Below are positions 36,001 through 39,000 of a stretch of 64,000 nucleotides of DNA, in pieces. The stretch is from the NCBI RefSeq assembly GCF_016026235.1, contig NZ_CP065613.1; one strand, given 5' to 3'. Within the stretch, counting starts at the first letter, position 1; each line of letters starts with the position of its first letter. The stretch comes from Escherichia coli. GTDB taxonomy: Bacteria; Pseudomonadota; Gammaproteobacteria; Enterobacterales; Enterobacteriaceae. A program made the position numbers.

Positions 36001-39000
36001 TTCCTGCATAGATTTAACCGGCCATCTGAGATGGCCGACAGGTTAACATAATTACAGCCATTTAGGGCCACGCGCTCAGCCCGCAGGTGAAAACGCATCT
36101 ATCACCTTGTGATCGACACCTTCATTCTCCCCCGCCAGTTCGGCACTGAGCTTCGCCATAAACTCGACTAAAAATTGCGCGTTGTGCTGCGCCAGCTGCT
36201 TGCCTCTTACGGTTTGCATGGTTTGCGGTAGCTTCAGCAACTTAGTCTGGAAATGATCCAGCGCGTAGCGTTTATCATCAAGCGGGCGATACTGTGCGAA
36301 CGGATCTTCGCCATCAAACAGCGCCACGCCCAATGCCCCTGAAACGGCAAACACGCGCGCCAGGCCAATCGCCCCCAGGGCTTCCAGCCGATCCGCATCC
36401 TGGACGATTTTAGCTTCCGTTGTTAAGGGGGCGATTTGCGCGCTGAAACTGTGAGCGGCAATGGCATGACAAACGGCCTCGATTTTCTCCGCCGGAAATT
36501 GCTCGAACTCTTCACGGAGCAGGCGACGCGTCTCTTCTGCCGCCAGGATTGAAGAACGCTGCCGTTGCGGATGATTTTTCGCCAGGCTCACAATATCGTG
36601 GAAATAACAGGCGGTTAAAATCACCAGCATATCGACGTCATCATCTGCCGCCAGCTTCTGTGCCGTAGCCCAGACGCGGCGAAAATGATACACGTCATGG
36701 GCCGCGTCCTGGTGCTGATGATGGTTTTTCAACCAGTTTTCGAACTGTGTCTGCCAGTGTTGTAAGTCCATACGCGCTCCGTTGCCAAAGAGTCGCCACC
36801 TTAGCAGTTTTTATTCATAGCGTCTGCTACGTGCGGGACGAGGTCGGGTGTACCAGGCAATGCTGCCTAACAATGCCCCGACCAGAGCCATAAATAAAAA
36901 TCCGACCAGTGCCCCTAACCACTTTCCCGCGGTAGAGCCTAAATCGCTTTCAAATCCCGACACGGGGGCATCGGGGATCCGGCTCATCACCCAGATGTAA
37001 CGCGCCATTGCCCAGACGAAATAGCCACACCATGTATAGAAAGCTCACAAAGCCAGTTTGCCACCAGGGCTGCGAGAGAGCCTCTCTTCCATCTTTGTCG
37101 AACCGTATTCCATTTTGAGATAACCCGGAAAATTCAGACTTAGTACTATTATGTGATAAAAGTCACATTTTTCCACATTGAATGAGCCAGTCAAGACTCA
37201 ATCATTTTTTGAACAAATAGATAAATTTTGCGCAACGGCAGTGAATACAGGAAAAATCGTTTTGAGCGATTTTATTTATCTTTGATATCGGCTTTATTAA
37301 TTCATTTAATCAATATATTAGCACTGAATACAATTATACCTTTTTATTTTTCTGTGTCATGATGCCTCCGTTATTAGCCTTTTATCGTCTTGTTTATATT
37401 TTTTGGGCCGGCATGATGCCGGCTTTTTTATGCCTTCATTAATGTGCGCGTGATCACACCAGCCGTTTAGCGCATCAATCATTGATACCCCCTATCTTTC
37501 CGCTAAACTCATAATATATTGATATGAATTGATAATTTTCATGAATACTTATGTTTAGAATTCATAATTCTGAATTATATTAAATATATTAGAAACATTT
37601 TGAAATCTTTTAAATATATTTGTTACATGTAATCTTTAAAATAAAATGAACTTCATAGAATAGTATCCAAATGTGCTTTTTTTGGATAACGGCACTTATT
37701 GATATATTCATGAAGATTATAATCACAAGGGAATACATAATGAAAAGAAAAGTTCTGGCAATGCTGGTCTCGGCGTTATTAGTTGCTGGCGCAGCAAATG
37801 CGGCTGAAATTTATAATAAAGATGGCAATAAACTGGATCTGTACGGCAAGATGGTTGGTGAGCGCATTCTGACCGACCGTGAAAATGGTGAAAAAGGCGA
37901 TAATTCTCAAGATACCTCTTATGCCCGTGTAGGCGTGAAAGGTGAAACTCAGATCAACCCTGAATTGACTGGTTACGGTCAGTTTGAACTAGACCTGGAA
38001 GCATCAAACAGACACAACCCTGACCAAACTCGTTTGGCTTATGCTGGTTTGAGTTACAAAGATTTTGGTTCATTCGACTATGGTCGTAATGTCGGTGTCG
38101 CGTATGATGCAGAAGCATTTACTGATATGTTTGTTGAGTGGGGCGGTGATTCATGGGCTGGTACTGACCTGTTCATGACCAACCGTACCAACGGTGTTGC
38201 AACCTATCGTAACACAGATTTCTTTGGCATGGTTGAAGGTCTAAATTTTGCTCTGCAATATCAGGGTAAAAATGAAGGTACAGGCAACTACAAAGCAAAT
38301 GGCGATGGCCATGGTTTATCTGTAACTTACACTATTGACGGTTTCTCATTTACTGGTGCTTACGCAAACTCTGACCGTACTGATTTCCAGTCTAGTGATA
38401 GTAAAGGTGAAAAAGCAGAAGTTTGGGCACTGTCAACAAAATATGATCCCAACAACGTCTATGCTGCTGTGATGTACGGTGAATCTCACAACATGAATTC
38501 CGACGACGGTGATGTTGTGAACAAAACACAAAACTTCGAAGCTGTTCTGCAATATCAGTTCGACTTCGGTCTGCGTCCATCCATCGGTTACTCCTATTCT
38601 AAAGCACTGGACGTAGCAGGTTACAAAGATTCTGATCGTCTGAACTACATTGAAATCGGTACCTGGTATTACTTCAATAAGAACATGAACGTATATACCG
38701 CTTATCAGATCAACCTGCTTGATAAGAGTGATTATGTTCTCGCTCATGGACTGAACACCGACGACCAACTCGCATTTGGTATCGTCTACCAGTTCTAATC
38801 AGCCAACGCGCCGCGGCGTGTTACTGTAAAACATAACACTAGCCTGAGTTCGTCCCTCATCGAACTCAGGCTTTTTTATTGGCATTTCATCTCCATCTGC
38901 GGCACACGCAATTGCCAAAGCATATCGATACAGCACCTTACCCTGCCCCTCCTGGCACAATATCTCTACCAGCTACTCTTCCAGCCAACACTCCAAATAC

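What the first reader, a model, noticed from the sequence alone, without database searches (positions are those of the whole stretch)
37359..37442. Orphan terminator and 27-codon hydrophobic micro-ORF upstream of the porin
A strong plus-strand intrinsic terminator (gggccggcatgatgccggc plus T-run) lies in the AT-rich region with no annotated gene upstream. It overlaps a 27-codon ORF (MMPPLLAFYRLVYIFWAGMMPAFLCLH) that lacks a good Shine-Dalgarno sequence. This could be the 3-prime end of an unannotated small RNA or leader transcript, or a small membrane peptide.
Basis: seen in the sequence. Interest (0 to 1): 0.3.

Follow-up and report, generated by a model that had tools for sequence, protein, structure and literature searches.

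The report
Terminator of known sRNA RseX
The "orphan" terminator is the 3' end of RseX, a small regulatory RNA of E. coli known since 2002-2006, and the overlapping 27-codon ORF is a by-product of the U-rich RNA sequence, so the finding is real but ordinary.

Summary
A perfect 7-bp GC-rich hairpin (37407-37423, 9 bp with G·U) followed by six T sits in an AT-rich intergenic region, and a 27-codon ORF lies at 37359-37442. It is not orphan. Rfam RF01401 (rseX) matches window 37341-37430 (+) over the full model at 96.9 bits (gathering score 50). The segment differs from the curated K-12 gene rseX (b4603) at three places and has the same position, between drpB/yedR and the yedS-type porin. RseX is a ~91-nt Hfq-dependent sRNA, silenced by H-NS. 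When expressed it represses ompA, ompC, fimB and ihfB, and it represses fepA through its terminator loop. NCBI's PGAP annotation pipeline leaves it unannotated, which explains the "no gene upstream" impression. The micro-ORF is not conserved as an ORF. Across 20 copies its length runs from 14 to more than 42 aa, its C-terminus is read in three frames because the T-runs vary in length, each ATG is lost in some lineages, and both are lost in Citrobacter. Variable columns show no third-codon-position bias (6/4/6). Variation follows RNA anatomy instead: loop 5/6 variable, terminator 0/17. Verdict: already known, low interest. Side observation: two CRP sites, bound in vitro in K-12, bracket RseX.

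The parts
37329..37334 (+). -10-like hexamer TACAAT at -12..-7 of the RseX start. The -35 region is poor (TTAATC at 17-nt spacing).
   Evidence: Read directly. T-A---T is kept in all Escherichia copies. The consensus scan does not flag it because the -35 is weak. Published work reports a sigma-70 promoter and a 5'-RACE-mapped primary 5' end for K-12 (PMC8313858). The assignment of this hexamer is my inference.
37341..37430 (+). rseX gene (sRNA RseX). The transcript probably ends within the T-run at about 37429, giving about 89 nt here against 91 nt in K-12.
   Evidence: Rfam RF01401 at 96.9 bits against a gathering score of 50, model positions 1-94 of 94. It aligns with K-12 rseX b4603 (NC_000913.3 2033649-2033739) with 2 substitutions and a 2-nt shorter T-run.
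37354..37378 (+). 5' stem-loop (RNA positions 14-38). The stem is weak and its 6-nt loop, GCCUCC here, is hypervariable.
   Evidence: Rfam consensus structure and MFE fold. Pairs are 95-97 % kept in 15 distinct homologues with no covariation. The loop is variable at 5 of 6 columns among Escherichia.
37373..37391 (+). Invariant single-stranded core ATTAGCCTTTTATCGTCTT, the probable base-pairing and Hfq-contact region.
   Evidence: Invariant in all Escherichia copies except the decayed P276M copy, and kept up to ...ATCGTC in Citrobacter. Unpaired in the fold. Its role as seed is inferred. The predicted ompA site is reported as 'region 5' in PMC8313858.
37407..37423 (+). Terminator hairpin GCCGGCA-UGA-UGCCGGC: 7 Watson-Crick pairs, extended by two G·U pairs to 37405-37425.
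   Evidence: It is 100 % paired in 15 distinct homologues, with one compensatory G-C to A-U change in Citrobacter, and 0 of 17 columns vary in Escherichia. In K-12 the loop of this terminator is required for fepA repression (PMC11979758).
37424..37429 (+). Terminator T-run: 6 T here, 7 or 8 T in the other copies examined.
37359..37442 (+). 27-codon ORF overlapping RseX positions 19-91 and running 11 nt past it. I judge it a non-functional by-product.
   Evidence: Present but not conserved as an ORF. No coding substitution pattern. No match of consequence in NCBIfam or Pfam.

Best explanation
The hairpin plus T-run is the Rho-independent terminator of rseX. This stand-alone gene for an Hfq-dependent trans-acting small RNA of about 90 nt lies between drpB (yedR, minus strand) and the yedS-type porin gene (plus strand). 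Shown here: the sequence belongs to the RseX family, is nearly identical to the experimentally studied K-12 gene, sits at the same chromosomal position, and has its anatomy. That anatomy is a U-rich 5' end, a weak 5' stem-loop with a variable loop, an invariant unpaired AU-rich core, and a GC-rich terminator with a poly-U tail. Taken from published work on K-12, and inferred to hold for this strain: transcription starts at a sigma-70 promoter that H-NS (backed up by StpA) keeps silent under laboratory conditions. When made, the RNA binds Hfq, for which the poly-U tail and the AU-rich stretch before the terminator are the usual contacts. It pairs near the ribosome-binding sites of ompA, ompC, fimB and ihfB mRNAs and represses them. 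Its 3' part represses fepA in a way that depends on the terminator loop, Hfq and RNase E. The 27-codon ORF is incidental: a U-rich RNA read as codons gives hydrophobic residues and few stops.
For: Rfam RF01401 rseX matches window 37341-37430 (+) at 96.9 bits against a gathering score of 50, E = 8e-14, over the full model (again in the whole-window pass). The curated K-12 MG1655 record annotates ncRNA rseX b4603 at 2033649-2033739 between drpB and the yedS pseudogene. The window aligns to it with two substitutions and a 2-nt shorter T-run. The gene order dcm-yedJ-drpB-[RseX]-porin-hchA is the same. The segment is single-copy and present in 4879 of 5426 complete E. coli genomes. Homologues in E. 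albertii, E. whittamii, three further Escherichia lineages and Citrobacter amalonaticus all pass the family's gathering score at 59.8-95.2 bits. In Citrobacter the copy sits in the same drpB-porin context. The terminator stem is paired in 100 % of cells, with one compensatory change. Variation follows RNA anatomy: loop 5/6 variable, stems 1/10 and 1/9, terminator 0/17. Terminators this strong number four in 64 kb against 0.025 expected. Literature: RseX is 91 nt, its 5' end was mapped by RACE, it acts through Hfq on ompA/ompC, it is seen on northern blots only in hns mutants, and fimB and ihfB are further targets (PMC8313858). The terminator loop acts on fepA (PMC11979758). The 21-37 % GC island fits H-NS silencing.
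Against: No expression data exist for this strain. In K-12 the native RNA is undetectable unless hns is removed, so activity in the wild remains an open question. This copy has the shortest T-run seen (6 T, against 7-8 elsewhere), which could weaken termination or Hfq binding. The -35 element is poor and the consensus promoter scan did not flag the promoter. Covariation support for the 5' stem-loop is nil, because the homologues are too similar. The fold as a whole is not more stable than shuffled sequence (z = -1.27), which is common for AU-rich Hfq sRNAs.
Confidence: 0.97

Rival explanations
1. RseX is a dual-function RNA: the ORF starting at 37359, or its conserved first ~15 codons (M-[M/I]-x-x-LLAFYRLVYIF), is translated into a small hydrophobic peptide.
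For: An ATG-initiated ORF exists. At least one of the two adjacent ATGs is kept in all 19 Escherichia copies examined. Codons 6-10 are invariant. There are precedents of sRNAs encoding very small proteins, such as Spot 42 and its 15-aa SpfP (PMC8916003, listed).
Against: There is no Shine-Dalgarno sequence, and the ATG lies 18 nt from the 5' end inside the 5' stem. ORF length ranges from 14 to more than 42 aa, and the part over the terminator is read in three frames because both T-runs vary in length. ATG1 is ATC in B2-type strains, ATG2 is ATA in many lineages, and both are lost in Citrobacter although the RNA still scores 70.9 bits. Variable columns fall 6/4/6 over codon positions 1/2/3, and most of the codon changes at the start of the ORF alter the amino acid. 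The invariant codons coincide with the invariant RNA core, so they carry no independent information. There is no meaningful family hit (12.7 bits against a cut-off of 569; none in Pfam). Two recent reviews of dual-function sRNAs do not mention RseX (0 occurrences).
Confidence: 0.03
2. The hairpin is a leader or attenuator terminator of the downstream porin transcript. Transcription from the RseX promoter would read through conditionally into the porin gene.
For: It lies on the same strand as the porin, 310 nt upstream of the porin ATG. This allele has only 6 T. A CRP site bound in vitro lies 14 nt after the T-run.
Against: The RNA is reported as a discrete ~91-nt species with a ~75-nt derivative (PMC8313858). 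No alternative anti-terminator pairing appears in the fold, and the centroid holds only the terminator. The porin has its own promoter-like sites at 37482-37647 and a nearly invariant 150-nt upstream region. No riboswitch or leader family matches 36700-37800. In K-12 the same terminator precedes a pseudogene.
Confidence: 0.04
3. The locus is a true rseX homologue but functionally inert: a silenced, slowly decaying relic that came with the horizontally acquired porin island.
For: Native expression is undetectable in wild-type K-12 (PMC8313858). About 10 % of complete E. coli genomes lack the segment. One of these is an IS1-mediated deletion, and losses in Shigella and E. coli HS are already published (PMC3318445). 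One strain carries a copy with a 7-nt deletion in the core (L010). The neighbouring yedS and drpB are pseudogenes in several strains.
Against: The core and terminator are invariant across Escherichia species whose flanking intergenic DNA has diverged to 44-80 % column identity. The gene is retained with synteny as far as Citrobacter amalonaticus, with a compensatory stem change. The RNA is active on several targets when expressed.
Confidence: 0.1

Closest known systems
RseX sRNA of E. coli K-12 (gene rseX, b4603; Rfam RF01401)
   Same: Same family by covariance model at 96.9 bits. Same position and strand between drpB and yedS. Identical over the 89-nt RNA apart from two substitutions, plus a 2-nt shorter T-run. 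Same terminator stem and loop.
   Different: RNA position 10 is U instead of A. Position 26 is C instead of U, which makes the loop GCCUCC, an anti-Shine-Dalgarno-like motif. The T-run has 6 T instead of 8. The neighbouring porin is intact here but a pseudogene in K-12, and drpB carries an internal stop here.
Other Hfq-dependent porin-regulating sRNAs encoded next to porin genes (MicF next to ompC, MicC next to ompN; also MicA, RybB); from my own knowledge, not tested here
   Same: Short stand-alone genes with a Rho-independent terminator and poly-U tail. They repress outer-membrane protein mRNAs by pairing near the ribosome-binding site, and they lie next to a porin gene.
   Different: No sequence relationship. 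RseX is not under sigma-E or OmpR control but is silenced by H-NS (PMC8313858). It lies on the same strand as its neighbouring porin. I found no complementarity to that porin's initiation region (rank 49-53 of 58).
SdsR and ArrS (regulation of fepA through the terminator loop)
   Same: [quoted passage not shown] The loop and stem concerned are identical in this window.
   Different: Unrelated sequences. The mechanism is unresolved, and RseX behaved differently from the other two with the compensatory stem mutant of fepA.
Dual-function sRNAs (SgrS/SgrT, Spot 42/SpfP)
   Same: A short ORF lies inside an Hfq-dependent sRNA.
   Different: In those cases the ORF is conserved and translation has been shown. 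Here the ORF is not kept in frame or in length, lacks an SD, and disappears in Citrobacter.

Membership tests
RseX sRNA (Rfam RF01401) | Sequence-plus-structure match to the family covariance model above its gathering score | tested here: met
   96.9 bits against 50, E = 8e-14, model 1-94 of 94, window 37341-37430 (+)
RseX sRNA (Rfam RF01401) | Orthology with the experimentally defined K-12 gene: near-identity and the same position between drpB/yedR and yedS, on the porin's strand | tested here: met
   K-12 annotation; alignment with 2 substitutions and a 2-nt T-run difference; gene order dcm-yedJ-drpB-RseX-porin-hchA
RseX sRNA (Rfam RF01401) | Rho-independent terminator with a poly-U tail at the 3' end | tested here: met
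   7 perfect pairs (9 with G·U) plus 6 T; conserved with one compensatory change
RseX sRNA (Rfam RF01401) | Own sigma-70 promoter giving a primary transcript of about 91 nt | tested here: inconclusive
   A -10-like TACAAT sits at -12..-7 and is conserved. The -35 is poor and the site was not flagged by the scan. The 5' RACE and northern evidence exists only for K-12.
RseX sRNA (Rfam RF01401) | Hfq binding and repression of ompA/ompC (also fimB, ihfB, fepA) | not testable with these tools
   Known for K-12 from PMC8313858 and PMC11979758. A crude duplex calculation ranks ompC and ompA only 11-17 of 58, so it has low power.
RseX sRNA (Rfam RF01401) | Silencing by H-NS | not testable with these tools
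   Consistent context only: a 21-37 % GC island. Shown for K-12.
Dual-function sRNA / small-protein gene | ORF kept in frame and in length among homologues | tested here: not met
   14 to more than 42 aa, three C-terminal frames, absent in Citrobacter
Dual-function sRNA / small-protein gene | Start codon with a ribosome-binding site, conserved | tested here: not met
   No SD in the 18-nt leader; ATG1 changed to ATC, ATG2 changed to ATA, or both lost, in different lineages
Dual-function sRNA / small-protein gene | Coding-type substitution pattern (excess of third-position and synonymous change) | tested here: not met
   Variable columns 6/4/6 at codon positions 1/2/3; most of the codon changes at the start of the ORF alter the amino acid. 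The sample is small.
Dual-function sRNA / small-protein gene | Evidence of translation | not testable with these tools
   No Ribo-seq or proteomic data available here. RseX is absent from two dual-function sRNA reviews.
Transcription attenuator / leader of the porin gene | Alternative (anti-terminator) structure or a known leader or riboswitch family | tested here: not met
   No competing structure in the MFE or centroid fold; no leader or riboswitch family in 36700-37800 at E <= 1

The most novel reading that the evidence does not exclude
RseX might be a dual-function RNA whose first ~15-18 codons (M-[M/I]-x-x-LLAFYRLVYIF...) are translated without an SD into a tiny hydrophobic peptide when H-NS silencing is lifted. 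The evidence speaks against this but cannot fully exclude it, because the conserved codons coincide with the conserved RNA core and every Escherichia copy keeps at least one ATG.
Probability: 0.03. Interest if true: 0.4.

Novelty: already known. Interest (0 to 1): 0.06.

Why it matters
It matters little as a discovery, because the element is the published sRNA RseX. There are three practical points. (1) Automatic RefSeq (PGAP) annotation leaves rseX blank in nearly all E. coli genomes, so sequence-only scans will keep rediscovering it as an orphan terminator; a covariance-model pass resolves this in seconds. (2) The comparison gives a clean negative for the micro-ORF. It also documents natural variation: a T-run of 6, 7 or 8, a hypervariable 5' loop, and an invariant core and terminator. 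This may help those studying RseX targets and the reported function of the terminator loop. (3) RseX is bracketed by two CRP sites bound in vitro in K-12, which no paper I found connects to RseX or to relief of H-NS silencing.

Tried and rejected
(1) Weak Rfam hits over the same hairpin, STnc430 on the minus strand (22.5 bits against 47, E = 0.67) and RyhB (21.2 bits against 55). I rejected these as similarity limited to the terminator.

(2) RseX pairing with the initiation region of its neighbouring porin. Unconstrained duplex folding was uninformative (z = +0.9; the known targets were also not significant). A windowed test against 58 gene starts ranked the porin 49-53 of 58, which gives no support. 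Its power is low, since ompC and ompA rank only 11-17.

(3) The near-consensus minus-strand promoter inside RseX as the drpB promoter. I rejected this because the drpB promoter was mapped next to drpB, between the old GTG-1 and ATG-22 (PMC7648144).

(4) Peptide family searches. The only hit was a spurious 12.7-bit match to an NADH-quinone oxidoreductase subunit model (cut-off 569 bits). Pfam gave none.

(5) The primary RseX paper (Douchin 2006, JBC) is not in the library. Its content is cited only as relayed by PMC8313858 and PMC7648144.

(6) Technical slips. One structure string contained a stray character (repeated). One scan script timed out (rewritten). One CRP pattern had a spacer one base too long (corrected).

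(7) Covariation test for the 5' stem-loop. It was uninformative because the homologues are too similar.

Full report
**1. The observation**

The window around the finding is E. coli DNA with the gene order dcm (34591-36009, -), yedJ (36076-36771, -), drpB/yedR (36811 to about 37092, -), a 650-bp AT-rich spacer, a yedS/OmpC-type porin (ATG 37740, +) and hchA (39390-40241, +). The 27-codon ORF is at 37359-37442 (+), exactly as described. The hairpin GGGCCGGCATGATGCCGGCTT is at 37405-37425 and is followed by TTTTTTAT. Its centroid fold is -14.6 kcal/mol. The general terminator scan is not very specific: 12 sites in 4 kb against 3.8 in shuffles. I therefore applied a stricter definition, requiring a perfect stem of at least 7 bp with at least 5 G/C, a loop of 3-8, and at least 6 T in the next 8 bases. 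The whole 64-kb window then holds only four sites on both strands, against 0.025 in randomised sequence. They are this one, the porin's own terminator (38841-38872), the DsrA terminator (28921-28945, -) and one at 49587-49606 (-).

**2. What it is**

A search of 36700-37800 against all Rfam families gives RF01401 (rseX, 'Hfq binding RNA') at 37341-37430 (+). The score is 96.9 bits against a gathering score of 50, E = 8e-14, covering model positions 1-94 of 94 (the same hit appears in the whole-window pass). The curated K-12 MG1655 record annotates ncRNA rseX (b4603) at 2033649-2033739 (+), between drpB and the yedS pseudogene. Aligned to it, the window differs at RNA position 10 (U for A), at position 26 (C for U), and by a T-run of 6 instead of 8. 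PGAP-annotated RefSeq genomes show 'none' under this segment, including the strain that is 100 % identical to the window over the 761 nt compared (NZ_CP050998.1).

**3. Distribution and conservation**

The 116-nt segment is single-copy and present in 4879 of 5426 complete E. coli genomes. One genome that lacks it has an IS1 element in place of rseX, yedS and the 5' part of hchA. Losses in Shigella and E. coli HS are already published (PMC3318445). I scanned one genome per species for the 5' core only, leaving the terminator free to vary. This found E. albertii, E. whittamii, three further Escherichia lineages, E. coli and Citrobacter amalonaticus. All of these pass the rseX gathering score at 59.8-95.2 bits. 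In Citrobacter the order yedJ-drpB-RseX-porin is kept.

Across eight Escherichia sequences, column identity in the intergenic region falls to 0.44-0.80 just upstream of the promoter and is 0.89-0.99 over RseX. Within RseX, variation follows RNA anatomy. The 5' loop varies at 5 of 6 columns, the stem arms at 1 of 10 and 1 of 9, the linker at 5 of 21, and the terminator stem-loop at 0 of 17. The terminator stem is paired in 100 % of cells across 15 distinct sequences, with one compensatory G-C to A-U change in Citrobacter. The 5' stem is 95-97 % paired but shows no covariation, because the set is too closely related for a stronger statement.

**4. The micro-ORF**

In 20 copies the ORF is 14, 15, 18, 27, 31, 36-39 or more than 42 aa long. 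The run of T before the hairpin has 4-6 T (plus a G to T change in some strains), and the run after it has 6-8 T. As a result the hairpin and what follows are read in three different frames. ATG1 is ATC in B2-type strains, ATG2 is ATA in many lineages, and both are lost in Citrobacter. Over the 14 indel-free codons, variable columns fall 6/4/6 on codon positions 1/2/3, and most of the codon changes at codons 1-5 alter the amino acid. There is no Shine-Dalgarno sequence in the 18-nt leader. Curated protein families give nothing meaningful. Two reviews of dual-function sRNAs do not mention RseX. The hydrophobic character follows from the genetic code, since U-rich sequence gives Phe, Leu, Ile and Val codons. 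The conserved stretch LLAFYRLVYIF is the translation of the invariant RNA core, so it carries no independent evidence. I put translation of a functional peptide at about 3 %.

**5. How it most likely works**

Shown here are family membership, orthology, anatomy and conservation. The following is taken from published work on K-12 and inferred for this strain. RseX was predicted from a sigma-70 promoter plus a terminator, and its 5' end was mapped by RACE. It was isolated as a multicopy suppressor of rseP essentiality, and it represses ompA and ompC in an Hfq-dependent way. The native RNA (about 91 nt, plus a form of about 75 nt) is seen only when H-NS is removed. fimB and ihfB are further direct targets (PMC8313858). 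Its 3' part (RseX+52) represses fepA 23-fold in a manner that needs the terminator loop, Hfq and RNase E, apparently without direct pairing (PMC11979758). The 21-37 % GC island fits H-NS binding.

I assign the -10 element to TACAAT (37329-37334, at -12..-7), which is conserved. The -35 is poor and the scan did not flag the promoter, so this step is inferred. The invariant unpaired core (37373-37391), followed by an AU-rich stretch and the poly-U tail, is the expected pairing and Hfq-binding module; this is also inferred.

**6. Rivals**

- **Leader or attenuator of the porin.** RseX is on the same strand and 310 nt upstream of the porin ATG. However, no alternative structure appears, no leader family matches, the RNA is a discrete species in K-12, and the porin has its own promoter-like sites and a nearly invariant upstream region.
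- **Regulator of the neighbouring porin.** Complementarity to the porin's initiation region is below the background of 58 gene starts (rank 49-53). The test is weak, since ompC and ompA rank 11-17.
- **Silent relic.** This is possible in part (undetectable expression, about 10 % loss, one decayed copy). Against it stand the invariance of the core and terminator across species and retention in Citrobacter.

**7. Comparison with the known, and novelty**

This is the known RseX, a member by every testable criterion, and not a new variant in kind. The allele's peculiarities are a GCCUCC loop and a 6-T tail. Novelty: already known. Interest is low at 0.06.

**8. Side observations**

The pattern TGTG-N7-TCACA occurs at only two places in the 64 kb, against 0.6 expected. 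Both lie in this intergenic region, at 37152-37167 and at 37443-37458, the latter 14 nt after the RseX T-run. In the second site the half-sites are invariant across Escherichia while the spacer varies. A 2026 Footprint-seq preprint lists the same two K-12 sites as CRP-bound in vitro, with Kd of 1.9 and 4.9 nM (PMC12871828).

A near-consensus sigma-70 promoter (ATGACA-16-TATAAT, 11 of 12) lies on the minus strand at 37360-37333. It sits back-to-back with the RseX -10 element. It is not the mapped drpB promoter.

drpB carries an internal stop here.

The 150 nt upstream of the porin ATG are 98-100 % invariant across Escherichia species.

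Noticed in passing
window 37152-37167 and 37443-37458: These are the only two TGTG-N7-TCACA (CRP-type) palindromes in the 64-kb window, against 0.6 expected by chance, and they bracket RseX at about -180 and +110 from its start. The second begins 14 nt after the terminator T-run. Its half-sites are invariant across Escherichia while its spacer varies. A 2026 Footprint-seq preprint (PMC12871828) lists both K-12 sites as CRP-bound in vitro (Kd 1.9 and 4.9 nM), assigned to (yedR) and yedS. I found no paper linking them to RseX.
   Followed up: partly
window 37333-37360, minus strand: A near-consensus sigma-70 promoter (ATGACA, 16-nt spacer, TATAAT; 11 of 12) overlaps RseX +1..+20 and lies back-to-back with the RseX -10 element. 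Its -35 (TGTCAT on the plus strand) is invariant in all homologues. It points toward drpB, but the drpB promoter was mapped next to drpB (PMC7648144), so this may be an antisense or spurious promoter in H-NS-silenced DNA.
   Followed up: partly
window 37045-37047 (minus strand), within drpB 36811 to about 37092: drpB (yedR, a cell-division protein) has an internal stop (TGG to TGA) in this strain. PGAP flags it as a pseudogene in the identical strain F8704-2. An O157:H7 strain has a frameshifted drpB and a frameshifted porin.
   Followed up: partly
window 37590-37740: The very AT-rich (about 21-30 % GC) 150 nt upstream of the porin start codon are 98-100 % invariant across E. coli, E. albertii, E. 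whittamii and other Escherichia lineages. They are about 89 % identical even in Citrobacter amalonaticus, which makes them more conserved than the neighbouring drpB start region. This is presumably a densely constrained promoter and 5' UTR. No Rfam family matches it.
   Followed up: partly
window 37424-37429 and 37399-37404; loci L001-L020: The two T-runs of RseX are length-polymorphic. The run after the hairpin has 6 T (this window), 7 T or 8 T (K-12). The run before it has 4-6 T. This window has the shortest terminator U-tail seen, which could affect termination or Hfq binding.
   Followed up: partly
window 37364-37369 (RseX positions 24-29): The loop of the 5' hairpin is the most variable part of RseX (GCCUCC, GCUUCC, GCUUAC, AACCCC, AGCCCC, AACCGC, AACGAC, ACUUAC, AACUCC, CACACC). 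This window's allele contains CCUCC, an anti-Shine-Dalgarno-like motif. In a crude calculation it pairs slightly better with the ompC and ompA SD regions than the K-12 allele (-19.0 and -19.3 against -17.1 and -18.0 kcal/mol).
   Followed up: partly
L010 (E. coli P276M, NZ_CP044293.1) 413-492: A decayed rseX copy has a 2-nt insertion near the 5' stem, a 7-nt deletion inside the otherwise invariant core, and a shortened pre-terminator stretch. It still scores 59.8 bits.
   Followed up: partly
L021 (E. coli 2017.18.04CC, NZ_AP027850.1) 3142-3839: In one genome lacking RseX, an IS1A element directly follows drpB, and rseX, the porin and the 5' part of hchA are missing. This indicates an IS1-mediated deletion.
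   Followed up: partly
window 28919-29005 (-), 46635-46838 (-), 47595-47774 (-): Other Rfam families above their gathering scores in the window: DsrA (102.5 bits), IS009 (129.2 bits) and CssrB, a chromosome-encoded Shigella sRNA (230.2 bits).
   Followed up: no
window 49587-49606, minus strand: A fourth strong terminator-like hairpin (GAGGCCCGGGGGCGGGCCTC followed by a T-run) passes the strict scan. I did not examine its context.
   Followed up: no
E. coli genome search results: Two of about 4900 places holding the rseX segment are on records labelled as plasmids rather than chromosomes. I did not inspect them.
   Followed up: no
window 37671-37739; L006 2291-2356: The porin reading frame stays open for 23 codons upstream of the real start (MKRKVL...) in both E. 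coli (MCFFWITALIDIFMKIIITREYI) and Citrobacter amalonaticus (MLFWITALIHTFMKFIVIREYI), although the DNA is very AT-rich. This is probably a consequence of the strong nucleotide conservation of the region.
   Followed up: no
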